Below the pieces are notes generated by a model that worked only from the letters and a program-made list of their open reading frames with translations, was not told the DNA's origin and did not search any database. From the UHGV virus genome UHGV-0045956: DNA of 32,333 nucleotides. The stretch is one strand, 5' to 3'. Positions 4,593 through 28,700 of this stretch are shown here, one piece after another. How positions within the stretch are numbered: position 1 is the stretch's first letter; the number at the start of each line of letters is the position of its first letter. This DNA comes from a virus. Made by a program: the position numbers and the translations under genes.

Positions 4593-4699
4593 NNNNNNNN
4601 NNNNNNNNNNNNNNNNNNNNNNNNNNNNNNNNNNNNNNNNNNNNNNNNNNNNNNNNNNNNNNNNNNNNNNNNNNNNNNNNNNNNNNNNNNNNNNNNNNN
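4593..4699. other. assembly gap (107 N)
   Basis: Run of N inside the E coding region. Confidence 0.98.
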
Positions 4700-6552: not shown

Positions 6553-6630
6553 NNNNNNNNNNNNNNNNNNNNNNNNNNNNNNNNNNNNNNNNNNNNNNNN
6601 NNNNNNNNNNNNNNNNNNNNNNNNNNNNNN
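6553..6630. other. assembly gap (78 N) followed by A22 and C17 homopolymers
   Basis: N run, then aaaaaaaaaaaaaaaaaaaaaaggggccgccccccccccccccccc at 6631..6677. Confidence 0.95.
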
Positions 6631-6853: not shown

Positions 6854-7960
6854 ATGGATGTCATTGAACTTAGAGAGTTACTTATCAAGTATAATGGTCT
6901 TCAAAATACTGACGAAGTCTATACGTTTTATTATGATGAAACGAATAATATTCGAAAACTATATTTAAAAGATTCTGGTTTTAATGTTGTAAAGGCGGAT
7001 AATTTCATCCTTGCAGGAATACTACACAAAGGGTTAAGCACTGACAGCGATTATTCAACCCTATTTAAAAAACTTAATCTTCAAAAAAGTGCCCGCGAGT
7101 TAAAACTCAGTCATATTGCCAAGGGTAGTTTTTTGGACATGCTTAAATCTGATAAGCTTTTAATTATTCTAAACTGGCTTATTGAAAACAATTTCCACAT
7201 CCATTATTTTAATCTTAATATCACATACTGGTCTATTATTGACATTATTGATTCTATTATTGGAGAGCTACATAATCCTTTTTATATCATGAACCACATG
7301 TCACTTAAGAGCGATTTTTATGAGCTTGCCAATAGCAATTCCGATGTTTTCCTGAATGCTCTACATAAATTTAACTACCCCGATATTCCAGAAGAAAAAG
7401 TTTATGAGTTTTGCCTCTGGCTTATCGATTTTACATGCATGCACAGTTGTATGCTACCAGATTTTCGAGCACACGCACTCAAAAATTTGGTTAAAGAATC
7501 TCTAAAAATCGAAGAACTACCGTTCATATCGGGATTTCATGGTCGAAAACTGATCGATAGCTTTATGGTATTTTATTTAAGAAACTTGTATCTATTTAAA
7601 AATTCCATTCACATATTTGATGAAGAAAATAGCATTCAAGATGAAGTTAAAAACTTCCCGTTAACTGAAAATGGCATACCAATACAGAATCATGAATTCG
7701 TTAAATCCCACAACTCAGAGGCTGTCCAACTATCTGATGTTATCGCAGGCTTTTTGGGTAAGTATTTTTCTTACTTAAAAGATGTAAATGACGAGCAATT
7801 AGCGATTGATAAGTCAGCCTTAACGAGCAAGCAATTTAAGACCCTTTCTGCGTTAAAACACATTATTGATATTTCTGATGATGTTAGCAGAGGATTTTTT
7901 AATGAAGTTAGCAGCGAGGGAGAGCGACGAAGAAACAACCGTTTTTTACATGGTGTATAA
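6854..7960 (+). CDS. hypothetical protein, AT-rich cargo gene at the Z/fun position (candidate defence/exclusion gene)
   Basis: 368-aa ORF, AGGGGA ribosome-binding site, strongly AT-rich, opposite strand to the flanking late genes; no transmembrane segment; DE near N-terminus (YYDETNN) and Q-x-x-D near C-terminus (VQLSDVIAG). Confidence 0.75.
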   Translation: MDVIELRELLIKYNGLQNTDEVYTFYYDETNNIRKLYLKDSGFNVVKADNFILAGILHKGLSTDSDYSTLFKKLNLQKSARELKLSHIAKGSFLDMLKSDKLLIILNWLIENNFHIHYFNLNITYWSIIDIIDSIIGELHNPFYIMNHMSLKSDFYELANSNSDVFLNALHKFNYPDIPEEKVYEFCLWLIDFTCMHSCMLPDFRAHALKNLVKESLKIEELPFISGFHGRKLIDSFMVFYLRNLYLFKNSIHIFDEENSIQDEVKNFPLTENGIPIQNHEFVKSHNSEAVQLSDVIAGFLGKYFSYLKDVNDEQLAIDKSALTSKQFKTLSALKHIIDISDDVSRGFFNEVSSEGERRRNNRFLHGV

Positions 7961-19494: not shown

Positions 19495-19667
19495 TGTCAG
19501 GAGTCCTGAATAGTGATTAGAGGAGTCACATGTCGGCATCAGTTTCCCGACGATGCACATCCTCCGCCATCAGTCCCGGATGGCTTATCACTGACACAAC
19601 AGCACCTTAGCGAATCGCAGGGCGCGACTCAGTAGCCTTGCCGTGTATTCATCACGGCGAGGTATTC

Positions 19668-21440
19668 ATGACCATCACCACAGACACCACTCTTTTACAC
19701 GACCCGCGTCGTCAGGCGGCGCTGCTGTACTGGCAGGGATTTTCCGTGCCGCAGATTGCCGCCATGTTGCAGATGAAACGCCCGACAGTGCAGAGCTGGA
19801 AACAGCGCGACGGCTGGGACAGCGTTGCCCCCATCAGCCGTGTCGAAATGAGTCTGGAAGCGCGGCTGACCCAGCTCATCATCAAACCGCAGAAAACCGG
19901 CGGTGACTTCAAGGAAATTGACCTGCTCGGACGCCAGATTGAACGACTGGCACGGGTAAACCGCTACAGCCAGACCGGCAACGAGGCAGACCTTAATCCG
20001 AACGTCGCTAACCGCAACAAAGGCGGGCGGCGCAAACCGAAAAAGAATTTTTTCAGTGACGAGGCCATCGAAAAGCTGGAGCAGATTTTCTTTGAGCAGT
20101 CTTTCGAATATCAGTTGCACTGGTATCGCGCCGGGCTTGAGCACCGCATCCGCGATATCCTGAAATCCCGCCAGATTGGCGCGACGTTTTATTTTTCCCG
20201 CGAGGCGCTGCTGCGCGCCCTGAAAACCGGTCATAACCAGATTTTTCTGTCGGCCAGTAAAACGCAGGCGTATGTGTTCCGCGAATACATCATCGCCTTT
20301 GCCCGGCTGGTTGACGTTGACCTGACCGGTGACCCGATTGTCCTGGGCAATAACGGTGCAAAACTGATTTTTCTCGGCACCAACTCCAACACCGCACAGA
20401 GCCATAACGGCGACCTGTACGTCGATGAGATTTTCTGGATCCCGAATTTTCAGGTACTGCGTAAGGTGGCATCAGGTATGGCCTCACAGAGTCACCTGCG
20501 CTCGACCTATTTCTCCACCCCGTCCACGCTGGCGCACGACGCCTACCCGTTCTGGTCGGGTGAACTGTTCAACCGGGGACGCGCCAGCGCCGCCGAACGC
20601 GTGGAAATCGACATCAGTCATAACGCCCTTGCCGGAGGTCTTCTCTGTGCGGACGGCCAGTGGCGGCAGATTGTCACCATTGAGGACGCCCTGAAAGGTG
20701 GCTGCACGCTGTTCGACATTGAGCAGCTCAAACGTGAAAACAGCGCCGACGATTTTAAAAACCTGTTCATGTGTGAATTTGTTGACGACAAGGCGTCGGT
20801 ATTCCCGTTCGAGGAGCTGCAACGCTGCATGGTCGACACGCTGGAAGAATGGGAAGACTATGCGCCGTTTGCCGCGAATCCGTTCGGCTCCCGCCCGGTA
20901 TGGATTGGTTACGACCCGTCACACCGTGGCGACAGCGCCGGATGCGTGGTGCTGGCACCGCCGGTGGTGGCCGGTGGCAAATTCAGAATACTTGAGCGTC
21001 ACCAGTGGAAAGGCATGGACTTTGCCACTCAGGCGGAATCCATCCGCAAACTCACCGAAAAATACAACGTCGAATACATCGGTATTGATGCCACCGGCCT
21101 CGGTGTCGGCGTGTTCCAGCTCGTGCGCTCGTTCTATCCCGCCGCGCGCGATATCCGCTACACGCCGGAAATGAAAACCGCAATGGTGCTCAAGGCAAAA
21201 GACGTTATTCGCCGTGGCTGTCTGGAATATGACGTCAGCGCCACCGACATCACCAGCTCGTTTATGGCTATCCGCAAGACCATGACCAGCAGCGGACGCA
21301 GCGCCACCTATGAGGCCAGCCGCAGCGAGGAAGCCAGCCACGCCGACCTCGCCTGGGCGACCATGCACGCCCTGTTAAATGAGCCACTCACTGCCGGTAT
21401 CAGCACCCCGCTGACATCCACCATTCTGGAGTTTTACTGA
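19668..21440 (+). CDS. P: terminase large subunit gpP
   Basis: Trimmed to ATG 19668 with GAGG ribosome-binding site (MTITTDTTLLHDP…), 590 aa as in P2 P; divergent from O. Confidence 0.9.
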   Translation: MTITTDTTLLHDPRRQAALLYWQGFSVPQIAAMLQMKRPTVQSWKQRDGWDSVAPISRVEMSLEARLTQLIIKPQKTGGDFKEIDLLGRQIERLARVNRYSQTGNEADLNPNVANRNKGGRRKPKKNFFSDEAIEKLEQIFFEQSFEYQLHWYRAGLEHRIRDILKSRQIGATFYFSREALLRALKTGHNQIFLSASKTQAYVFREYIIAFARLVDVDLTGDPIVLGNNGAKLIFLGTNSNTAQSHNGDLYVDEIFWIPNFQVLRKVASGMASQSHLRSTYFSTPSTLAHDAYPFWSGELFNRGRASAAERVEIDISHNALAGGLLCADGQWRQIVTIEDALKGGCTLFDIEQLKRENSADDFKNLFMCEFVDDKASVFPFEELQRCMVDTLEEWEDYAPFAANPFGSRPVWIGYDPSHRGDSAGCVVLAPPVVAGGKFRILERHQWKGMDFATQAESIRKLTEKYNVEYIGIDATGLGVGVFQLVRSFYPAARDIRYTPEMKTAMVLKAKDVIRRGCLEYDVSATDITSSFMAIRKTMTSSGRSATYEASRSEEASHADLAWATMHALLNEPLTAGISTPLTSTILEFY

Positions 21441-22474
21441 TGAGCAAGAAAAAAGGGAAAACACCGCGACCAGCGGCAAAAACAATGACCGCCAGCGCCC
21501 CGAAAATGGAGGCATTCACCTTTGGCGAGCCGGTGCCGGTACTCGACCGCCGTGACATTCTGGATTACGTCGAATGCATCAGTAACGGCAGATGGTATGA
21601 GCCGCCGGTCAGCTTTACCGGTCTGGCAAAAAGTCTGCGTGCTGCCGTGCATCACAGCTCACCGATTTACGTCAAACGCAATATTCTGGCCTCGACATTT
21701 ATCCCGCACCCGTGGCTGTCCCAGCAGGATTTCAGCCGCTTTGTACTGGATTTTCTGGTGTTCGGTAATGCGTTTCTGGAAAAGCGTTACAGCACCACCG
21801 GTAAGGTCATCAGACTGGAAACCTCACCGGCAAAATATACCCGCCGTGGCGTGGAGGAGGATGTTTACTGGTGGGTGCCGTCCTTCAACGAGCCGACAGC
21901 CTTCACGCCCGGCTCCGTGTTTCACCTGCTGGAGCCCGATATTAATCAGGAGCTGTACGGTCTGCCGGAATATCTCAGCGCCCTTAACTCTGCCTGGCTG
22001 AATGAGTCGGCCACGCTGTTCCGCCGCAAGTATTACGAAAACGGCGCACATGCCGGATACATCATGTACGTCACCGATGCCGTGCAGGATCGCAACGATA
22101 TCGAAATGCTTCGCGAAAACATGGTGAAGTCGAAAGGCCGCAACAACTTTAAAAACCTGTTTCTCTATGCCCCGCAGGGGAAAGCCGACGGCATTAAAAT
22201 TATCCCGCTCAGTGAAGTGGCGACGAAGGACGATTTTTTTAATATCAAAAAAGCCAGCGCCGCTGACCTGCTGGATGCGCACCGCATCCCCTTTCAGTTG
22301 ATGGGCGGCAAGCCGGAGAACGTCGGGTCGCTAGGTGATATTGAGAAAGTGGCAAAGGTCTTTGTCCGCAATGAGCTTATCCCGCTACAGGACAGGATCC
22401 GCGAGATAAACGGCTGGCTCGGTCAGGAGGTCATCCGCTTTAAAAACTACTCACTGGACACTGACAACGGCTGA
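21440..22474 (+). CDS. Q: portal protein gpQ
   Basis: 344 aa as in P2 Q; start overlaps P stop (ATGA). Confidence 0.9.
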   Translation: MSKKKGKTPRPAAKTMTASAPKMEAFTFGEPVPVLDRRDILDYVECISNGRWYEPPVSFTGLAKSLRAAVHHSSPIYVKRNILASTFIPHPWLSQQDFSRFVLDFLVFGNAFLEKRYSTTGKVIRLETSPAKYTRRGVEEDVYWWVPSFNEPTAFTPGSVFHLLEPDINQELYGLPEYLSALNSAWLNESATLFRRKYYENGAHAGYIMYVTDAVQDRNDIEMLRENMVKSKGRNNFKNLFLYAPQGKADGIKIIPLSEVATKDDFFNIKKASAADLLDAHRIPFQLMGGKPENVGSLGDIEKVAKVFVRNELIPLQDRIREINGWLGQEVIRFKNYSLDTDNG

Positions 22475-22478
22475 ACAT

Positions 22479-22501
22479 CGCCGCCTGCGGGCGGCTTTTT
22501 T
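22479..22501 (+). terminator. rho-independent terminator after Q
   Basis: gccgcc-tgcg-ggcggc stem-loop followed by TTTTTT directly after the Q stop. Confidence 0.6.
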
Positions 22502-22666
22502 ACACCCCGTCATCACGGCCTCACACGCTCACCACCGCACAAAACACCCCGCAGACACACCAACGCCCCGGCAGGCCGACTAAATGCCATCACGACGCGC
22601 TCAGACGCAAAAAAACTGTCACTACCACGCCGTTACGTTGGCCCCATAAAAAGTGGCCCACTCCAG

Positions 22667-23668
22667 TTATAATAATTTGTCCAGCCTAGCTGAAACAATA
22701 CCTAGAACAACTGTTGAAACTATATTTATCACCACTCTTAAAATACTCTTCTTTCGCTTCTTACTATATTCATCATACAACCTCTCATCACCCTTATTTA
22801 ATACAATGTACGATGCTGGAGTATAACCATCAATTAATCTCTCTAGGCCTTCACCTAAATGCTCCGCTAACAATGGGATAATAGAAAACGCACCAAGAAA
22901 GAGCATTAAAAATTTTACTAACCTTTCTTTATCACCAATATCAATATATTCACCAACATTGTACAGTGCATAACTTAAAATCAATATAGAAAAAGAAAAC
23001 CGCATAATCAGTGGAATTAAATACGATATCCTTTGAGCTTGCTGTATCAATGGTATTTTGTTTGTAACTCTTTGACATCCTTCAACCCATTCTTTAAATG
23101 CTTCGATAAAACCTCTAGCCACTACATAATCAGCATATTCAACAACTATTTCTGCTGAACTGGTGAGCATGAATGCAACAAAACGCCCCCTAATGAAAGG
23201 TGGTGCATCTTCTTCCATTTCTTTCTGCATAGCAATTCTTGATGCTAATTTAACAGTAACTTCATAGTGGTTAGGTAATGATGCCCCTGTCGATAAAATT
23301 GCAAAGTTATATTTTAAAATTACACTAATTGTTGGACTACTTCCCGCACTACTCGACATTGCAAACTTATCAAAAGAGGTAAACTGTTCCTTTCTATCTT
23401 TTGAATGTAAAATAGTTACCGTTTCATTTTTCGATATAATATTATGAACATCACACAATTGATTTATTTTTTGATGAACGCTTCTTATCTCATCGATATT
23501 TATAAGTAAATTCTCAGAGGTTCTCTGCCTTATTGTTTCTGTTGTTCCCGTTATATGTTGATAAATTTGCTGATAAATACGAATGCTAGTATTAATATCC
23601 CGAGAAGCAGGTAACCCACTATTAACCCCATTATTTTTTTCATTTGACTCATCAATTATAATACTCAT
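22667..23668 (-). CDS. hypothetical membrane protein, AT-rich cargo between cos and Q
   Basis: 333-aa ORF; ~200-aa soluble N-terminal part then three predicted transmembrane helices; strongly AT-rich versus backbone. Confidence 0.7.
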   Translation of the reverse strand: MSIIIDESNEKNNGVNSGLPASRDINTSIRIYQQIYQHITGTTETIRQRTSENLLINIDEIRSVHQKINQLCDVHNIISKNETVTILHSKDRKEQFTSFDKFAMSSSAGSSPTISVILKYNFAILSTGASLPNHYEVTVKLASRIAMQKEMEEDAPPFIRGRFVAFMLTSSAEIVVEYADYVVARGFIEAFKEWVEGCQRVTNKIPLIQQAQRISYLIPLIMRFSFSILILSYALYNVGEYIDIGDKERLVKFLMLFLGAFSIIPLLAEHLGEGLERLIDGYTPASYIVLNKGDERLYDEYSKKRKKSILRVVINIVSTVVLGIVSARLDKLL

Positions 23669-23912
23669 TTTATTTCCTATAAAAACTTAACCAGCAAATT
23701 AAACAAAAAGAACACAAGGTTATTATTTAGCGTGCAACAACACGATTGCACAACCAAATGCCACGTGTACGAATCTAACCATTCTCTTATATTAAATCAA
23801 GTCAATACAACCTAATAGACACATTTTTTATCGCAGTTATACACTTGGTTAACAATATGCGGATAGTTACTCAAATCAAATTACATATATGACAAAATGA
23901 ACAATTGCGCGC

Positions 23913-23931
23913 AGTGCTTTCCCCGCCTCGC
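23913..23931 (-). other. cos: cos site, 19-nt cohesive end GGCGAGGCGGGGAAAGCAC
   Basis: + strand gtgctttccccgcctcgcc is the reverse complement of the P2 cohesive-end sequence as I recall it; GC-rich island between AT-rich genes. Confidence 0.7.
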
Positions 23932-24036
23932 CCGCCCGCTTCATGGGGCGGTTTTAATGTAGGTGCATGAACACTCCAAGAGCGCGCCAGCATTGACGAT
24001 AACTGACAATAAAAACGGCCTCTGACATATGCACAT

Positions 24037-24954
24037 TCATTCACAATCATGCATATTAAAGAACGGGTATGGATAGCGTCGTAAGATCTCATCTTCACTG
24101 TACCCCAAATAATCAGACATGAGTTTAATCGAAGGTGGCGTTACAGGTTTCATAAGCAGAGGAAAACGTTCGTGCAAATCATTGAATTTAAGAATCCCTG
24201 AATCTTCTTGCATTACTCTTTTGTCAAACAGCGATTCAGCATACAATGGCAACTCTTTGAGCAACAGATTAATATCAAGCAACAAAACATCTATCATAAT
24301 CATTATTTGCTCAGTAATATCAATGTAATAAGCCGCCTTATTACTACCTATAGCATTAACAATATCATCATTTTTAAAACGCATCGTCGGCAAAGGTGAA
24401 CCTGTTGATTCAATAATCATTCCTCTATAGGTGTCATCAAAATCATTCCTAACATTTAATGCAGCCAATAGGCTGTTAAACCTTCTTGCTATATCACTAA
24501 CAACAAAAGCATCCCCCCAGTTAGTAGTCTTTGCTGTCTCTCTATTATTCTCTACTCCCTTTTGACTCAATATACAGGCCAACTCACTTAAATCTGATGA
24601 TAGGGGAGCACCAGAAAAAACCACGACAGGAAAAGCTAAAGCCCTCTCGATAGGATTTTCACTTATACTTACCCCACCATAATAATTCCCTTTAATTTGC
24701 AACAACGTTGTCATTGCAGAAAAGTAGTCATAAATACATTTATTTACAACGCTTACCTTTCTTCTTTGTGCTTTAAGGTACTCCTGCCGATAAAACAACC
24801 TAGTTGCAATAAAGTAACTCAGCACAGAAGAGATAATTGGTAATACTACAGGCAGCACATAATCTTTTATGACATTAGTATTATTAACGCCTTTAATTGC
24901 ATCAATAATATCCTCAACCTGAAGCTGCCCTATTATATAGCTCGTATAATCCAT
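24037..24954 (-). CDS. hypothetical membrane-anchored protein, AT-rich cargo at the tin/old position
   Basis: 305-aa ORF; single N-terminal transmembrane helix (YVLPVVLPIISSVLSYFIATRLF); ATG 2 nt after the upstream lipoprotein stop. Confidence 0.7.
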   Translation of the reverse strand: MDYTSYIIGQLQVEDIIDAIKGVNNTNVIKDYVLPVVLPIISSVLSYFIATRLFYRQEYLKAQRRKVSVVNKCIYDYFSAMTTLLQIKGNYYGGVSISENPIERALAFPVVVFSGAPLSSDLSELACILSQKGVENNRETAKTTNWGDAFVVSDIARRFNSLLAALNVRNDFDDTYRGMIIESTGSPLPTMRFKNDDIVNAIGSNKAAYYIDITEQIMIMIDVLLLDINLLLKELPLYAESLFDKRVMQEDSGILKFNDLHERFPLLMKPVTPPSIKLMSDYLGYSEDEILRRYPYPFFNMHDCE

Positions 24955-24956
24955 TA

Positions 24957-25163
24957 TCAGAAAGCCGTTATTGTTCTATTACAACGTTCAGTAGCAACTT
25001 TCACAGCATCACGCCCATCACTTAATTTAGGGTAAGAACCAATCTCTATAAAATATTGGACACCTCTTTCAATACAACTCTCAACTTCTTTTTTATTACT
25101 CTCATTACAACCAACCAGCAACGCCCCAAAAAAAGCCATAACACAAATCAGTTTTCTTTTCAT
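24957..25163 (-). CDS. small lipoprotein (candidate superinfection-exclusion factor)
   Basis: ATG 25163 with AAGGTG ribosome-binding site; MKRKLICVMAFFGALLVGC signal peptide and lipobox; ~50-aa mature part with Cys residues; AT-rich. Confidence 0.6.
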   Translation of the reverse strand: MKRKLICVMAFFGALLVGCNESNKKEVESCIERGVQYFIEIGSYPKLSDGRDAVKVATERCNRTITAF

Positions 25164-25301
25164 TTTAAACACCTTAACAAACACGATACAAAAACGTATA
25201 TTTATATTATCTTTCAGAATAAGTAAATCCCAGCTATTCATCAACTCTCGGTGTCAATCTGATGGGTATCTAACGCCTCGCTAAGCTCGTTGTTCAACCC
25301 C

Positions 25302-25428
25302 NNNNNNNNNNNNNNNNNNNNNNNNNNNNNNNNNNNNNNNNNNNNNNNNNNNNNNNNNNNNNNNNNNNNNNNNNNNNNNNNNNNNNNNNNNNNNNNNNNN
25401 NNNNNNNNNNNNNNNNNNNNNNNNNNNN
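25302..25428. other. assembly gap (127 N) followed by ~31-nt poly-G
   Basis: N run, then gggggggggtgggggggggggggggggggggg at 25429..25460. Confidence 0.95.
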
Positions 25429-25464: not shown

Positions 25465-25710
25465 CTACGGCCTGCGTGGTGGTTGTTTTGGCATGTTAGC
25501 TGGCCGAGATGTCTCAATTTTCTGTCTACTGATATCGTTAAACCGTCTGTAATTATCCCGGACTATTTCGGCACACCCGACCAGCTCATCGGGCGTCAGA
25601 TTTTCGTTGACCATAATCCGCTGTAAACGCTGAACAATAGCCATCAGCTTGATATTTTTAGTTTTATGGTGCGGTATCTCGCCTGGTATTCTGTGCATTA
25701 TCCAAGCCAC
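25465..25710 (-). CDS. hypothetical protein (3' end next to gap and poly-G, boundary unreliable)
   Basis: 81-aa ORF downstream of the ASCH-like gene; C-terminus abuts the homopolymer and gap. Confidence 0.35.
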   Translation of the reverse strand: MAWIMHRIPGEIPHHKTKNIKLMAIVQRLQRIMVNENLTPDELVGCAEIVRDNYRRFNDISRQKIETSRPANMPKQPPRRP

Positions 25711-26153
25711 CCGTTTTGCTGTGCACGCTCCATCTGTTCATCTGAATAGTTCCATGCTCCATCCGTGGCAACCATTGCCCCGCCAGACATCCCCGTCTCT
25801 GGTTCATACATAACAGCAAGGCCGAGCTGATGCATAATTTCATGATTAATTCTGAATACCAGACCACGCTCACTAAGTTCTTTCCAGTTCACAATCTCAT
25901 ATGCGCCTGTATTAAGCAGCTCAATACTTAGCAAGACATAATCTTCCAGCCAGTCTGACAGGTCAGTAACATCTGTTATCCGGGCTTCAACCTTTCGCCC
26001 CGTATACACACCCTGCACCCATTCATGCAAAATCAACGTGTCCCCGCGCTCATAATTACGGTCATTTTTCCGAAACTCTGCGCGTTTCTTTCCTTCCAGC
26101 ACAAGGTCGAAATATTTTGCGTGCAGCTTTACCTCGTGAATTTTAGCCATCAT
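25698..26153 (-). CDS. ASCH/DUF3850-like protein with C-terminal HExxH motif
   Basis: MAKIHEVKLHAKYFDLVLEGKKRAEFRKNDRNYERGDTLILHEW resembles the ASCH-like DUF3850 N-terminus; HEIMH near C-terminus; ATGATGA overlap with the A stop. Confidence 0.6.
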   Translation of the reverse strand: MMAKIHEVKLHAKYFDLVLEGKKRAEFRKNDRNYERGDTLILHEWVQGVYTGRKVEARITDVTDLSDWLEDYVLLSIELLNTGAYEIVNWKELSERGLVFRINHEIMHQLGLAVMYEPETGMSGGAMVATDGAWNYSDEQMERAQQNGWLG

Positions 26154-28435
26154 GTCCACTCCATTACTGTTGAGAATCCCGGCCACTCATCAGCGACCGA
26201 ATACGTGAATTTTTTCCCGTCATAATTTACGGTTGCCCCACGCGCCAGCGCCTCAAGCTCCCATCGCTGCGGCCTGATACCATTCTGAGCAAGGTCAACG
26301 CGGATACGGGTAATTTGCATTCTTTCCGACCGGGTCAGTCTGGCCGATGGTGCAATTTCATGTGGTTTTAACGGGCTTCCGTTTCTTTGCTGACGGTTTG
26401 GCGTTCTCAGGTCGTGTTTTAATGCGCCCCTGAGCGCCCTCACGACCTCCGGGTCACTCCATTCGATAACACCGTCATTAACCAGATTAAGCACTGCTGC
26501 GGCGTGCTCAGAAGGTGTGGGAGCCGGTAACGAAGTATCACCACCGGTGAGTTTTCCACAGTTATTGACAGGACTCCGAGGCGCGGCGATGCCGCTTTTT
26601 AAAGTCAAAGGCTCAACGACCGGAACTTTCGGCACAATGCGCCAGTCCGTCGTTCTGGTGATATGAATATGACGCGCGCCGAGATGCGGCGCGTAAATGC
26701 CGACCACTCTCTCGACTTCTTCCTCGTACTCGTTAACTTCATCCGACGGGCTACGGGCGACTCTGACAGTCTGGCAATCGCGCGGAACATTTGCCCCACC
26801 CTGCGCACTGATATACAACGCAAAATCGCCACTGTCTGCGGCAGCGCGTGCAGCCTCGACGCGTTCGTCAAACTCATCAGCAATGCTGACGCCGCGAGGC
26901 AATTTGCGTAGTTCACGGTAAGCCCCCATTGTCGGCAGACCAACCGTTTTAAATTGCGGGATGCGCCACGTTGACGCCCATGCAGTAACAGCCGCGGCAG
27001 TATCTTTCAGAGGTCTGCCGGTATCGTTATCGAGCTGACCATCCAGTGCATAGCCGTCGATATTTTTTGAAATGTATTTCGCGATATACCCCGCAGCACC
27101 GCCCCGGTTAAGGTGTTTCGCCTGAAAACGGTTTCGCTCGGCTCCTCTTTCGTCGCCATCCTCTTTGAGCGCGTAGCGACGCATGGTTTCGATAATCTGG
27201 TTACGCTGACGTGGATTACAAAAAAGCATCATATGCCAGTGCGGCGTTCCGTCGTGGTGTGGCTCGACGACACGCAAACCGTAGACCTGTAAATCATTAT
27301 CCTTGAATGCCGTGCGCATCAGGCTCCAGATGCGGCAGAGATAACGCTGCGCATCCTTTGGATTAAATGCCTCATCGTTCCAGCCGTGATTTAGCTGGAC
27401 GGTTTTACTTTCGCCTTTTCCGACCTGACGTGTCGGGTGATACTTTGACGGCGCGGTCAGCGTGATAAACATCCCCACATCACCCTCTGCGGCGGCGTAA
27501 CGCTCAATACCGGCGATGGTGTTCATCAGCTCCATCCGGCGAATTTCTGGATTAGAAATACTGCCCATCACCTTACTGATAAGGTCGATGCGCTCGCCGG
27601 TTTCCCTGTTTTCAAGGTCACACGATTTAAGAAATTCCAGATTTGCCTGGCGGCGCGCACGCACATCACGAATGGCGTGTTTACTGGCATAAGGAGAACG
27701 GTCTTTATTGACCTCCCCGACAGCTATCAGTAACGCTTCATGCCAGCGCATACGCTGGCCTTTAAGCTGATGAGTCCACCACTCATCGTTAAACAGACGG
27801 GCAATGGCAGAATATGCCTGCCTCGTGGTCATCTGCCCTTTACGGTATTTTTTCCAGTAGAGAGGGGAAATATTGAAAGCACGTGCAGCGCCAGCAACAT
27901 GACCATAGAGGTGAGCCTGCGCCTCATCCGTAAACAGCGATTCTTTTTCGCCATGCGCATCCACCCAGGCATCGCTGAGTTCCTCATACATCATGAAAAG
28001 CTGCGATGAGATACGGGCAGCAAACTTTTTCAGCTCCTTGTCATTCATTCCCGGCAGGCGCGCATAGTGGTCACGCTCTGCCAGAAACAGCAACGACGCG
28101 TCGGTGTTCATTTCATGGCGCTGATTCACACGCTCAATGCGCGGCCATAAACGACGCTGAAAAGTGGATGTGAGGAAATAAAACCCGTGTACCGGGCTTT
28201 TATTGCGCCGGATGTAGTCATAGCGTGAAGTAAACAGCGAGCGCAAAAAGTAAGGCAGGCGGTTAATCGTGGATAAAACACCTTGCACCTGACGCATCTC
28301 GTCACGTGTAAGGGGTCTTTCGCGCCCGACGGCCTCGCGTGGCGCGTTCCATGCATAAGCACCGGTAAACGCCTTACCGGTGCCTGCAGCAAATGCTGAA
28401 GGAGGGACAAAACGCCCGGAGGCTTTAACGGCCAT
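26150..28435 (-). CDS. A: replication initiation endonuclease gpA
   Basis: Trimmed to ATG 28435 (MAVKASGRF…), 761 aa as in P2 A; contains the conserved …HHDGTPHWHMMLF… and …AGYIAKYISKNIDG… regions I associate with rolling-circle initiators. Confidence 0.88.
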   Translation of the reverse strand: MAVKASGRFVPPSAFAAGTGKAFTGAYAWNAPREAVGRERPLTRDEMRQVQGVLSTINRLPYFLRSLFTSRYDYIRRNKSPVHGFYFLTSTFQRRLWPRIERVNQRHEMNTDASLLFLAERDHYARLPGMNDKELKKFAARISSQLFMMYEELSDAWVDAHGEKESLFTDEAQAHLYGHVAGAARAFNISPLYWKKYRKGQMTTRQAYSAIARLFNDEWWTHQLKGQRMRWHEALLIAVGEVNKDRSPYASKHAIRDVRARRQANLEFLKSCDLENRETGERIDLISKVMGSISNPEIRRMELMNTIAGIERYAAAEGDVGMFITLTAPSKYHPTRQVGKGESKTVQLNHGWNDEAFNPKDAQRYLCRIWSLMRTAFKDNDLQVYGLRVVEPHHDGTPHWHMMLFCNPRQRNQIIETMRRYALKEDGDERGAERNRFQAKHLNRGGAAGYIAKYISKNIDGYALDGQLDNDTGRPLKDTAAAVTAWASTWRIPQFKTVGLPTMGAYRELRKLPRGVSIADEFDERVEAARAAADSGDFALYISAQGGANVPRDCQTVRVARSPSDEVNEYEEEVERVVGIYAPHLGARHIHITRTTDWRIVPKVPVVEPLTLKSGIAAPRSPVNNCGKLTGGDTSLPAPTPSEHAAAVLNLVNDGVIEWSDPEVVRALRGALKHDLRTPNRQQRNGSPLKPHEIAPSARLTRSERMQITRIRVDLAQNGIRPQRWELEALARGATVNYDGKKFTYSVADEWPGFSTVMEWT

Positions 28436-28700
28436 ATGAGCCAAAAGCCTCTGAACAACGCCTGCTGAGTTGCTCAACCTGCGCGTTTAAATCAGCAAAA
28501 GACTTTGCGCTTCCGGTCAGAATATCGTGATGCATCAGGCCGGAAACGAGCTGGCTTAATTTCGGATAATAACCAACCACCGCCAGCCATTCCTGACCGG
28601 CGTTTTTACCGCTTTCCGCTCTCTTTTTCTCGTGGAGAATAAACTGAAAGCTGTCACTGGTAACGACATAACGTTCGCCAATTTCAATACGAATACTCAT
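28425..28700 (-). CDS. hypothetical early protein (P2 orf83 position)
   Basis: 91-aa ORF immediately upstream of A. Confidence 0.5.
   Translation of the reverse strand: MSIRIEIGERYVVTSDSFQFILHEKKRAESGKNAGQEWLAVVGYYPKLSQLVSGLMHHDILTGSAKSFADLNAQVEQLSRRCSEAFGSYGR

What the first reader, a model, noticed from the sequence alone, without database searches (positions are those of the whole stretch)
22502..23912. AT-rich membrane-protein gene inserted between the cos site and portal gene Q
The cohesive-end sequence sits at 23913..23931 and the sequence turns AT-rich within a few bases of it on the Q side. A 333-aa ORF (22667..23668, - strand) with a soluble N-terminal domain and three C-terminal transmembrane helices fills most of the ~1.4 kb between cos and the Q stop. 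In P2 as I recall it Q lies close to the left cohesive end, so this is cargo at an unusual, packaging-critical position. The architecture (cytoplasmic domain plus membrane segment) would fit an abortive-infection or exclusion effector, but I recognise no family.
Basis: partly seen in the sequence, partly recalled or inferred. Interest (0 to 1): 0.8.

Follow-up and report, generated by a model that had tools for sequence, protein, structure and literature searches.

The report
Unknown membrane-protein cargo beside P2 cos
A P2-like prophage carries, right beside its DNA-packaging site, a foreign gene for an uncharacterised three-helix membrane protein; the site is a known slot for anti-phage genes and the protein family is large and unnamed, so it is a reasonable but untested candidate for a new phage-defence gene.

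Summary
A 1,291-bp AT-rich insert (22616..23906, GC 0.33) replaces 21 bp of P2 sequence between the Q terminator region and cos. It ends 7 bp from the cohesive end, which lies at 23914..23932. The insert carries one real gene (22667..23668, minus strand, 333 aa). The protein has a conserved cytoplasmic alpha/beta domain followed by three transmembrane helices.

The "unusual, packaging-critical position" reading is only partly right.
- The insert starts exactly where P2, P4 and 186-type cos conservation stops.
- The cos-to-Q interval lies inside the published gpA-gpQ defence hotspot and was proposed as an insertion slot in the 1990s.
- It is nonetheless rarely filled: 2 of 79 close P2 relatives.

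The protein belongs to a large family (1,017 clusters at 50% identity). Members are almost all 320-345 aa, and there is no Pfam, PADLOC, PHROG, NCBIfam or PDB sequence match. No partner gene is conserved. In six enterobacterial genera the homologue again sits between cos and Q.

Neighbouring cargo is repeatedly known defence: AbiP2, DUF4238, an OLD-like ATPase and NsnA-like proteins.

My best reading is a single-gene anti-phage membrane effector, probably abortive infection (about 0.4). Function is untested.

The parts
21440..22474 (+). Portal gene Q, the conserved flank of the slot
   Evidence: Pfam Phage_portal. 94% nucleotide identity to P2 across its 3' end.
22480..22502 (+). tQ rho-independent terminator, retained from P2
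   Evidence: Terminator scan finds GCCGCCTGCGGGCGGC followed by a T-run. P2 annotates tQ at the same relative position.
22475..22615 (.).
   Evidence: BLAST to the P2 junction runs continuously through 22615.
22616..23906 (.). AT-rich insert (1,291 bp, GC 0.33) replacing 21 bp of P2
   Evidence: Absent from 77 of 79 close P2-like contigs. No flanking direct or inverted repeats and no Rfam match.
22667..23668 (-). 333-aa cargo gene (WP_000022316.1, annotated 'hypothetical protein')
   Evidence: 197 homologues at E<=1e-3 and 1,017 clusters at 50% identity. No Pfam, PADLOC, PHROG, NCBIfam or PDB sequence match.
23081..23599 (-). Conserved cytoplasmic alpha/beta domain (residues about 24-196)
22961..23029 (-). 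Transmembrane helix 1 (residues about 214-236)
   Evidence: Hydropathy. Lies within model helix 205-242.
22859..22921 (-). Transmembrane helix 2 (residues about 250-270)
   Evidence: Hydropathy. Lies within model helix 246-279.
22748..22858 (-). Conserved cytoplasmic loop (residues 271-307), ending in the KKRKK cluster
   Evidence: Invariant residues E275, D279, S285, Y286, N290, G292 and D293. Eight K/R residues fit the positive-inside rule. A short strand at 286-288 in the model lies next to the N-terminal domain.
22685..22747 (-). Transmembrane helix 3 (residues about 308-328), continuous with a cytoplasmic helix that starts at residue 291
   Evidence: Hydropathy. Model helix 291-326. G322 and S325 are nearly invariant.
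23669..23906 (-). 238-bp AT-rich upstream region (GC 0.30) with the AGGA ribosome-binding site at 23675..23678. The promoter is presumed, not identified. A GTGCAA-N8-TTGCAC palindrome lies at 23732..23751.
   Evidence: Sequence. The consensus promoter scan finds nothing convincing upstream of the ATG.
23907..23959 (.). Conserved 53-bp cos core. The 19-nt cohesive end is 23914..23932.
   Evidence: 98% identity to P2 over exactly this block. An alignment of ten cos regions shows that all diverge straight after TGCGCGC.
24037..25244 (-). Independent cargo on the A side of cos: a 305-aa single-TM protein and a small lipoprotein, transcribed in the same direction as the 333-aa gene
   Evidence: Other prophages that carry the same 333-aa gene have AbiP2 or DUF4238 here instead.

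Best explanation
The 333-aa gene is a self-contained, horizontally acquired accessory gene (a moron). It sits in the cosL-to-Q slot of a P2-like prophage.

It most likely acts as a single-protein anti-phage defence. The protein would sit in the inner membrane with its roughly 200-residue N-terminal domain and the conserved TM2-TM3 loop in the cytoplasm. These would form a sensor or ligand-binding module. When an infecting phage triggers that module, the three transmembrane helices would compromise the membrane, presumably as an oligomer. The infection would then abort.

**Shown**
- The insertion boundaries, and the intact cos core.
- That the gene is real and strongly conserved.
- The three-TM architecture.
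- That it stands alone, with no conserved partner.
- That it recurs in this slot, next to known defence genes.

**Inferred**
- Expression in the lysogen.
- The membrane topology.
- Sensing, oligomerisation and membrane damage.
- Any anti-phage phenotype.
For: **Location**
- The gene lies inside the published gpA-gpQ defence hotspot (PMC9122126) and in the cosL-gpQ slot cited in PMC5694545.
- The only other Q-side cargo among 79 close relatives is an NsnA / PD-T4-2_A-like GmrSD_N protein plus a nucleotidyltransferase-like protein.

**Company**
- The same gene co-resides with AbiP2 in strain HKUOPY1 and with DUF4238-Pers in L023.
- The Yersinia homologue sits next to an OLD/GajA/AriA-like ATPase.
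- The Limnohabitans homologue lies among HsdM_N, DUF6602, NERD, Fic, PIN and BrnT genes.
- A Shewanella plasmid homologue lies next to CHAT, HNH and DUF2326 genes.
- The Enterobacter homologue lies near a TIR gene.

**Mobility**
- GC content is below that of the flanks in every locus examined.
- Homologues lie next to integrase fragments or IS elements in Acidovorax and Parasulfuritortus.

**Single-gene module**
- No neighbour other than portal Q recurs across 24 loci.

**Architecture**
- The cytoplasmic domain is highly conserved, while the TM1-TM2 segment and the short external loop are variable.
- The third transmembrane helix continues from a long cytoplasmic helix.
- From general knowledge, a sensor-plus-TM layout is seen in RexB, Cap15, PycTM, Csx28 and the CorA effectors of type III CRISPR.
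Against: - There is no experimental data of any kind.
- No sequence or fold match to any known defence protein.
- Some homologues are solitary among housekeeping genes, as in Herbaspirillum.
- A very strongly conserved cytoplasmic domain is not what is usually expected of a sensor that binds fast-evolving phage proteins.
- No promoter could be identified.
- One of ten E. coli copies is interrupted by IS1. This is neutral evidence, but it shows the gene is dispensable.
- Guilt by association in a hotspot is weak evidence. Only about a third of the hotspot systems Rousset et al. cloned showed activity on their phage panel.
Confidence: 0.4

Rival explanations
1. Superinfection exclusion. The prophage-encoded inner-membrane protein blocks DNA entry or an early membrane-associated step of incoming phages, possibly including other P2-like phages. 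The cell is not killed.
For: - It is a single prophage gene for an inner-membrane protein in a lysogenic-conversion slot.
- Within Enterobacterales it is tightly tied to P2-like phages. All six IMG/VR hits are P2-like, and six genera carry it between cos and Q.
- Rousset et al. showed that hotspot cargo can act against other P2-like phages.
Against: - Predicted periplasmic exposure is tiny and poorly conserved: a loop of about 13 residues and a C-terminal tail of about 5.
- The conserved mass of the protein is cytoplasmic.
- The family is widespread outside prophages and outside Enterobacterales.
- No PHROG family matches.
Confidence: 0.15
2. It is not an anti-phage gene. It is either a lysogenic-conversion function acting on host physiology (membrane, ion or small-molecule related), or an accessory function for the phage's own cycle such as lysis timing or interplay with P4 satellites.
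For: - No defence-family match.
- The N-terminal domain has a generic ligand-binding-type fold: AdoMetDC-like, KA1, SRPBCC/TBP-like.
- The weak top Foldseek hit is the CorA channel (E 0.01).
- Some contexts have no defence neighbours.
- The long association with the cos-Q slot across genera could reflect a benefit to the phage itself.
Against: - It is absent from about 97% of close relatives, so it is not needed for the phage cycle.
- It lies outside the late operons and converges on the P-Q operon.
- Profile comparison with CorA is negative (probability 0.5%), and the protein has three TM helices rather than CorA's two.
- Neighbours are repeatedly defence genes.
Confidence: 0.25
3. It is a decaying or silent passenger. 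The gene is inherited with the slot but is no longer expressed or functional in this prophage.
For: - No consensus promoter was found in the 238-bp upstream region.
- One E. coli copy is disrupted by IS1.
- In Pantoea and Enterobacter it survives in prophage remnants next to Q fragments.
Against: - The ORF is intact and at least 99.5% identical across all ten E. coli genomes that carry it.
- All 33 residues invariant in the family alignment are by construction present in this copy, which was one of the aligned rows.
- A good ribosome-binding site is present.
- Its retention in remnants after the phage decayed argues for selection on the gene itself.
Confidence: 0.1

Closest known systems
P2 gpA-gpQ cos-proximal defence hotspot (Rousset et al. 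2022, PMC9122126), which holds old and tin in P2 itself
   Same: - Cargo lies between gpA and gpQ next to cos.
- It is AT-rich and swapped among near-identical phages.
- Known defence genes occupy the same region in relatives.
   Different: - In P2, old and tin lie on the other side of cos, before cosR.
- Among the relatives sampled, the Q side is filled in only 2 of 79.
- The published analysis treats the whole A-Q interval as one locus and does not separate the two sides.
cosL-gpQ insertion slot of P2/186-like phages (Dodd & Egan 1996 on retrons Ec67/Ec86, and Nakayama 1999, both as cited in PMC5694545); ORF1-4 of Ralstonia phage phiRSY1
   Same: Foreign DNA replaces the short stretch between cos and the portal-gene terminator region without disturbing either.
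   Different: The cargo here is neither a retron nor a Vgr-like gene. It is an uncharacterised membrane-protein family.
P4 satellite defence hotspot (gop-beta-cII position)
   Same: - The geometry is identical: cohesive end, then C/TGCGCGC, then AT-rich cargo transcribed away from cos.
- P4 gop starts at position 247. The gene here starts 245 bp from the cohesive end.
   Different: - This element is a P2-like phage, not a satellite.
- No family member was found in a P4-like context.
- P2 and P4 are reported almost never to exchange defence genes (PMC13586616).
Single-protein or effector-type membrane defence proteins (RexB, Cap15, PycTM, Csx28, type III CRISPR CorA effectors, the 3-TM partner of Rst Hydrolase+3TM)
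   Same: A cytoplasmic domain joined to a few transmembrane helices, carried on mobile elements or in defence hotspots.
   Different: - No sequence or profile similarity: PADLOC gives nothing; hhalign probability is 0.2% against the Rst 3-TM protein and 0.5% against E. coli CorA.
- The domain order and the number of TM helices differ.
- No partner enzyme is present.
CorA/MIT metal-ion channel fold
   Same: Similar length, an N-terminal cytoplasmic alpha/beta domain, and a long helix running into the membrane. It is the top Foldseek hit against the PDB, over about 320 aligned columns.
   Different: - The hit is weak: E 0.01, probability 0.16, TM-score 0.11.
- There are three TM helices here rather than two, and no profile similarity.

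Membership tests
P2 gpA-gpQ cos-proximal hotspot cargo (Rousset 2022) | Lies between replication gene A and portal gene Q of a P2-like phage | tested here: met
   A is 26150..28477 (-). Q is 21440..22474 (+). The gene lies between them.
P2 gpA-gpQ cos-proximal hotspot cargo (Rousset 2022) | Content varies among otherwise near-identical phages | tested here: met
   Among 79 contigs with Q at least 98% identical, 77 have an empty Q side, one carries this gene and one carries different cargo. The A-side cargo differs among carriers of this gene.
P2 gpA-gpQ cos-proximal hotspot cargo (Rousset 2022) | Demonstrated anti-phage activity of the cargo | not testable with these tools
   This needs cloning and plaque assays. 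The protein was not found in the held parts of the supplementary tables of Rousset 2022, Vassallo 2022 or DefensePredictor 2026. The Rousset tables are truncated as stored.
cosL-Q insertion slot (Dodd & Egan 1996, via PMC5694545) | Foreign DNA replaces sequence between cos and the portal-gene terminator, leaving both intact | tested here: met
   The insert 22616..23906 replaces 21 bp of P2. The terminator tQ (22480..22502) and the 53-bp cos core (23907..23959) are retained.
Known anti-phage defence protein families (PADLOC-DB v2.0.0) | Profile HMM match | tested here: not met
   No families at E<=1 for the window protein. None at E<=0.01 for ten distant family members.
CorA/MIT channel family | Sequence-profile similarity to CorA, and two C-terminal TM helices | tested here: not met
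   hhalign against E. coli CorA gives probability 0.5%. There are three TM segments. No Pfam CorA hit. Foldseek similarity is weak only.
Rst Hydrolase+3TM system (P4 hotspot) | Homology to the 3-TM component, and an adjacent HAD-like hydrolase | tested here: not met
   hhalign probability 0.2%. No hydrolase neighbour and no conserved partner.
Abortive-infection membrane effectors (a functional class, not a sequence family) | Phage-triggered membrane depolarisation or cell death that blocks phage yield | not testable with these tools
   Only the architecture is compatible: a cytoplasmic domain plus three TM helices.
Superinfection-exclusion proteins of phages (PHROGs) | Match to a phage protein family annotated as exclusion | tested here: not met
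   No PHROG family at E<=0.1. No tblastn hit in 50,697 phage records.
Transposon or IS-borne cargo | Terminal inverted repeats, target-site duplication or a transposase | tested here: not met
   No flanking repeats. No transposase ORF in the insert.

The most novel reading that the evidence does not exclude
The 333-aa protein is the first examined member of a large, unnamed, architecturally uniform family (over 1,000 clusters at 50% identity, across Proteobacteria and beyond). On this reading the family is a new single-gene anti-phage system: a novel cytoplasmic alpha/beta sensor domain wired to a three-helix membrane effector. Enterobacterial P2-like phages would have carried it for a long time in the cosL-Q slot, the P2 counterpart of the P4 satellite's hotspot position.
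Probability: 0.35. Interest if true: 0.6.

Novelty: new variant of a known kind. Interest (0 to 1): 0.45.

Why it matters
If the gene protects against phages, it would add a widespread family to the defence catalogue. That family currently has no Pfam, PADLOC or PDB handle, and it works as a single gene, so it is easy to test.

It would also show that the published P2 "A-Q hotspot" is really two independent slots, one on each side of a 53-bp cos core. The Q-side slot mirrors the geometry of the P4 satellite hotspot. That bears on the open question of why P2 and P4 share a cos-adjacent hotspot yet almost never exchange cargo (PMC13586616).

If the gene does not defend, the finding is simply an ordinary moron of unknown function in a known slot.

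Tried and rejected
- **Family searches** with Pfam, PADLOC, PHROGs and NCBIfam on the protein and on ten distant relatives found nothing usable. The only hits were sub-threshold noise such as DUF3894 and RimP_N.
- **A profile search of PDB sequences** gave no hits at E<=10.
- **Foldseek of the full model against the PDB** gave nothing at E<=1e-3. The weak CorA and CYTH/TTM hits were followed up, and CorA was rejected by hhalign.
- **The AFDB50 fold library** was unavailable.
- **The idea that the cargo came from a P4 satellite** by recombination through the shared cos core:
  - The geometry fits.
  - But no family member was found in a P4-like context.
  - The literature reports almost no P2-P4 exchange.
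  - I keep this only as a structural analogy.
- **A transposon origin** was rejected, because there are no terminal repeats.
- **An RNA element in the upstream region** was rejected, because there is no Rfam match.
- **A two-gene system with the A-side ORFs** was rejected. They are co-directional across cos, but other prophages pair the same gene with AbiP2 or DUF4238 instead.
- **A promoter search** was inconclusive.
- **Literature and supplement look-ups** for the accession or the peptide found nothing.
Full report
**1. What the window is**

The window is a P2-like prophage of E. coli. The region matches E. coli strain MS 16-3 at 99.8-100% identity. The relevant features are:

| Feature | Coordinates | Evidence |
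|---|---|---|
| Terminase gene P | 19638..21440 (+) | (annotated terminase ATPase subunit in the matching record) |
| Portal gene Q | 21440..22474 (+) | |
| Replication gene A | 26150..28477 (-) | (annotated replication endonuclease) |

Relative to the standard P2 map, the window is inverted.

**2. Checking the observation**

- The P2 cohesive-end sequence occurs once, at 23914..23932.
- In the P2 reference, the cohesive end and the Q stop codon are 167 bp apart, with terminator tQ between them. Here the distance is 1,439 bp.
- BLAST against a reconstructed P2 cos junction shows 94% identity from inside Q through 22615. Identity resumes, at 98%, over 23907..23959. In P2 only 21 bp separate those two points.
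- The insert is therefore 22616..23906: 1,291 bp at GC 0.33, against 0.56 for the P-Q genes.
- The insert has no terminal repeats and no Rfam match.
- It holds one substantial ORF, 22667..23668 on the minus strand (333 aa), with an AGGA ribosome-binding site 7 nt upstream of the ATG.
- The ORF is certainly a gene:
  - 197 homologues at E<=1e-3 in the 90%-clustered database; the best 120 are listed, down to 4e-76.
  - 1,017 clusters at 50% identity with E<=1e-3, of which 286 have E<=1e-30.

**3. Is the position unusual or packaging-critical?**

I aligned cos regions from ten sources:
- the window, P2 and P4;
- prophages or remnants from Klebsiella, Pantoea, Serratia, Enterobacter and Yersinia;
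- two IMG/VR contigs.

All share the sequence through the cohesive end plus C/TGCGCG(C/T). All diverge immediately afterwards, including P2 versus P4. The insert therefore starts exactly at the edge of the conserved cos core, and the 53-bp block 23907..23959 is untouched. This block corresponds to the 55-bp core of Ziermann & Calendar 1990, as cited in PMC5694545.

The position is already in the literature:
- Rousset et al. define the whole gpA-gpQ cos-proximal region as a P2 defence hotspot (PMC9122126).
[quoted passage not shown] It cites Dodd & Egan 1996 (retrons Ec67/Ec86 replacing DNA between cos and a terminator of a 186-related prophage) and Nakayama 1999.

- P2's own cargo, old and tin, lies on the other side of cos.
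- Among 79 IMG/VR P2-like contigs with Q at least 98% identical that reach cos, 77 have a Q-to-cos distance of 156-170 bp. One carries this same gene. One (L084) carries different cargo.
- The gene is present in 10 of 5,426 complete E. coli genomes, once each. One copy is interrupted by IS1.

The geometry is also that of the P4 satellite hotspot: cohesive end, 7 bp, then AT-rich cargo transcribed away from cos. P4 gop starts at position 247. This gene starts 245 bp from the cohesive end.

**4. The two sides of cos are independent slots**

| Locus carrying the 333-aa gene | Cargo on the A side of cos |
|---|---|
| Window and MS 16-3 | 305-aa single-TM protein plus a small lipoprotein |
| Strain HKUOPY1 | AbiP2 reverse transcriptase |
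| IMG/VR contig L023 | DUF4238-Pers |

In the window, the A-side ORFs run in the same direction as the 333-aa gene, across cos. Because the A-side partners are swapped between carriers, they are not an obligate operon with it.

**5. The protein**

*Architecture*
- Hydropathy gives three transmembrane segments: residues about 214-236, 250-270 and 308-328.
- An AlphaFold model built on a 38-sequence alignment has pLDDT 79.7 and pTM 0.68. It shows:
  - a disordered N terminus (residues 1-22);
  - an alpha/beta domain (residues 24-196);
  - three long helices (205-242, 246-279, 291-326);
  - a short strand (286-288) in the TM2-TM3 loop.

*Topology*
- Charges fit N terminus in, loop 1 out, loop 2 in, C terminus out.
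- The cytoplasmic loop carries eight K/R residues, including KKRKK at 303-307.
- The external loop is net acidic.

*Conservation*
- 33 invariant columns, nearly all in the N-terminal domain or in the cytoplasmic loop (E275, D279, S285, Y286, N290, G292, D293).
- TM1, TM2 and the external loop are poorly conserved.

*Similarity searches*
- No family match in Pfam, PADLOC, PHROGs or NCBIfam, for this protein or for ten distant relatives.
- No PDB sequence match.
- Foldseek against the PDB gives nothing below E 1e-3. The weak top hit is CorA (E 0.01, probability 0.16).
- hhalign against E. coli CorA gives probability 0.5%. CorA also has two TM helices, not three.

**6. Where relatives live**

*Enterobacterales: always between cos and Q*

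| Host | Locus | Arrangement |
|---|---|---|
| Klebsiella | L010 | cos, then about 85 bp to the likely start, gene, convergent Q |
| Serratia | L095 | cos, 106 bp, gene, convergent Q |
| Pantoea dispersa | L014 | prophage remnant: cos, 92 bp, gene, Q fragments |
| Enterobacter mori | L097 | prophage remnant: cos, 82 bp, gene, Q fragment |
| Yersinia enterocolitica | L006-L009 | opposite orientation, but still on the Q side, next to an OLD/GajA/AriA-like ATPase |

- All six IMG/VR viral-contig hits carry the family member. Five of them show P2-type P and Q genes with the gene between cos and Q; the sixth (L128) is a short truncated contig with no cos or P/Q match. None is P4-like.
- A neighbour-joining tree groups the E. 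coli/Pantoea/Erwinia, Klebsiella/Enterobacter/Cronobacter and Serratia copies together. The Yersinia copy falls among environmental sequences.
- This suggests one old acquisition in this slot plus at least one independent acquisition. It is a quick tree without support values.

*Outside Enterobacterales: a solitary gene in variable contexts*

| Host | Neighbourhood |
|---|---|
| Limnohabitans | defence-island-like (HsdM_N, DUF6602, NERD, Fic, PIN, BrnT) |
| Acidovorax | integrase fragments |
| Parasulfuritortus | IS elements |
| Shewanella baltica | near a HerA-type ATPase |
| Shewanella putrefaciens plasmid | next to CHAT, HNH and DUF2326 genes, in a prophage-like region |
| Herbaspirillum | housekeeping genes |

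- Across 24 loci, no neighbour other than portal Q recurs.
- GC content is below that of the flanks in every locus examined.
- The family is therefore a mobile single-gene module.

**7. Mechanism**

Taken together, the evidence is:
- the gene sits in a known defence hotspot;
- its neighbours are repeatedly bona fide defence genes;
- the only other Q-side cargo in the sample is an NsnA / PD-T4-2_A-like GmrSD_N protein;
- it is mobile and stands alone;
- its architecture is a conserved cytoplasmic domain joined to a few transmembrane helices.

The best-supported reading is a single-protein anti-phage system acting at the membrane, most likely abortive infection triggered through the cytoplasmic module. 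I put this at about 0.4.

Every functional step is inference. Nothing here shows expression, toxicity or protection.

The rivals are:

| Rival | Confidence | Main point |
|---|---|---|
| Non-defence conversion or phage-accessory function | 0.25 | No defence-family match, and some contexts have no defence neighbours |
| Superinfection exclusion | 0.15 | Disfavoured by the tiny, variable external exposure and by the family's spread outside prophages |
| Silent passenger | 0.10 | Disfavoured by strict conservation and by retention in prophage remnants |

**8. Novelty and score**

- The locus type is known: hotspot cargo in a slot described in the 1990s and again in 2022.
- The protein family is not known. 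It is large and uniform, and I could not find it in the defence databases and papers searched. Those look-ups cover only what is held here, and the Rousset tables are truncated as stored.
- I rate it a new variant of a known kind, with interest 0.45. It is a good, cheap experimental candidate but not a surprise to a specialist.
- The finer point may be of some independent use for analyses of P2/P4 hotspot evolution: the published A-Q hotspot is two independent slots flanking a 53-bp cos core, and the Q-side slot mirrors the P4 geometry.

Noticed in passing
window 24037..25244 (-): The A side of cos carries a 305-aa protein with one N-terminal TM helix (phrog_21267, function unknown) and a small lipoprotein. 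The lipoprotein ORF is 24957..25244, with a likely start giving MKRKLICVMAFFGALLVGC (phrog_32041). The 305-aa protein is listed in Rousset 2022 Table S5B as protein 3 of a TIR_2-containing P2 hotspot system (35 occurrences). No TIR gene is present here.
   Followed up: partly
window 6854..7960 (+): A second AT-rich cargo slot (GC about 0.34) lies between tail genes, at the P2 Z/fun position. It encodes a 368-aa protein that matches the PADLOC candidate PDC-S51 (E 9e-106) and Pfam DUF3800.
   Followed up: partly
L084 6174..7851 (IMG/VR UViG_3300010259_000013): This is the only other Q-side cargo among 79 close P2 relatives. It consists of an NsnA / PD-T4-2_A-like GmrSD_N (DUF262) protein of 353 aa and a 204-aa nucleotidyltransferase-like protein, in a 1,875-bp Q-to-cos interval.
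   Followed up: partly
window 23732..23751 (-): A perfect 6-bp inverted repeat, GTGCAA-N8-TTGCAC, lies about 65-85 bp upstream of the start codon. It looks like an operator, but no consensus promoter was found nearby.
   Followed up: no
window 4593..4699, 6553..6630, 25302..25428: Three runs of N (107, 78 and 127 bases) are masked or unresolved stretches. The third lies in the A-side cargo region. There the matching genome, MS 16-3, annotates a further 77-aa hypothetical protein.
   Followed up: partly
NZ_CP195976.1 2278004..2279782 (E. coli H9): One of the ten E. coli copies of the 333-aa gene is split by an IS1A insertion.
   Followed up: no
cos regions of the window, P2, P4, L010, L014, L095, L097, L126: On the A side of cos, a second short conserved motif (CTGGCGCGG-like) sits about 50-55 bp from the cohesive end in most P2-like and P4 sequences. 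This suggests that the packaging signal extends further on that side than on the Q side.
   Followed up: no
window 25698..26186 (-): The Orf91-like protein next to A has DUF3850/ASCH plus DUF7415 domains. At 162 aa it is longer than P2 Orf91, which spans 330 nt.
   Followed up: no
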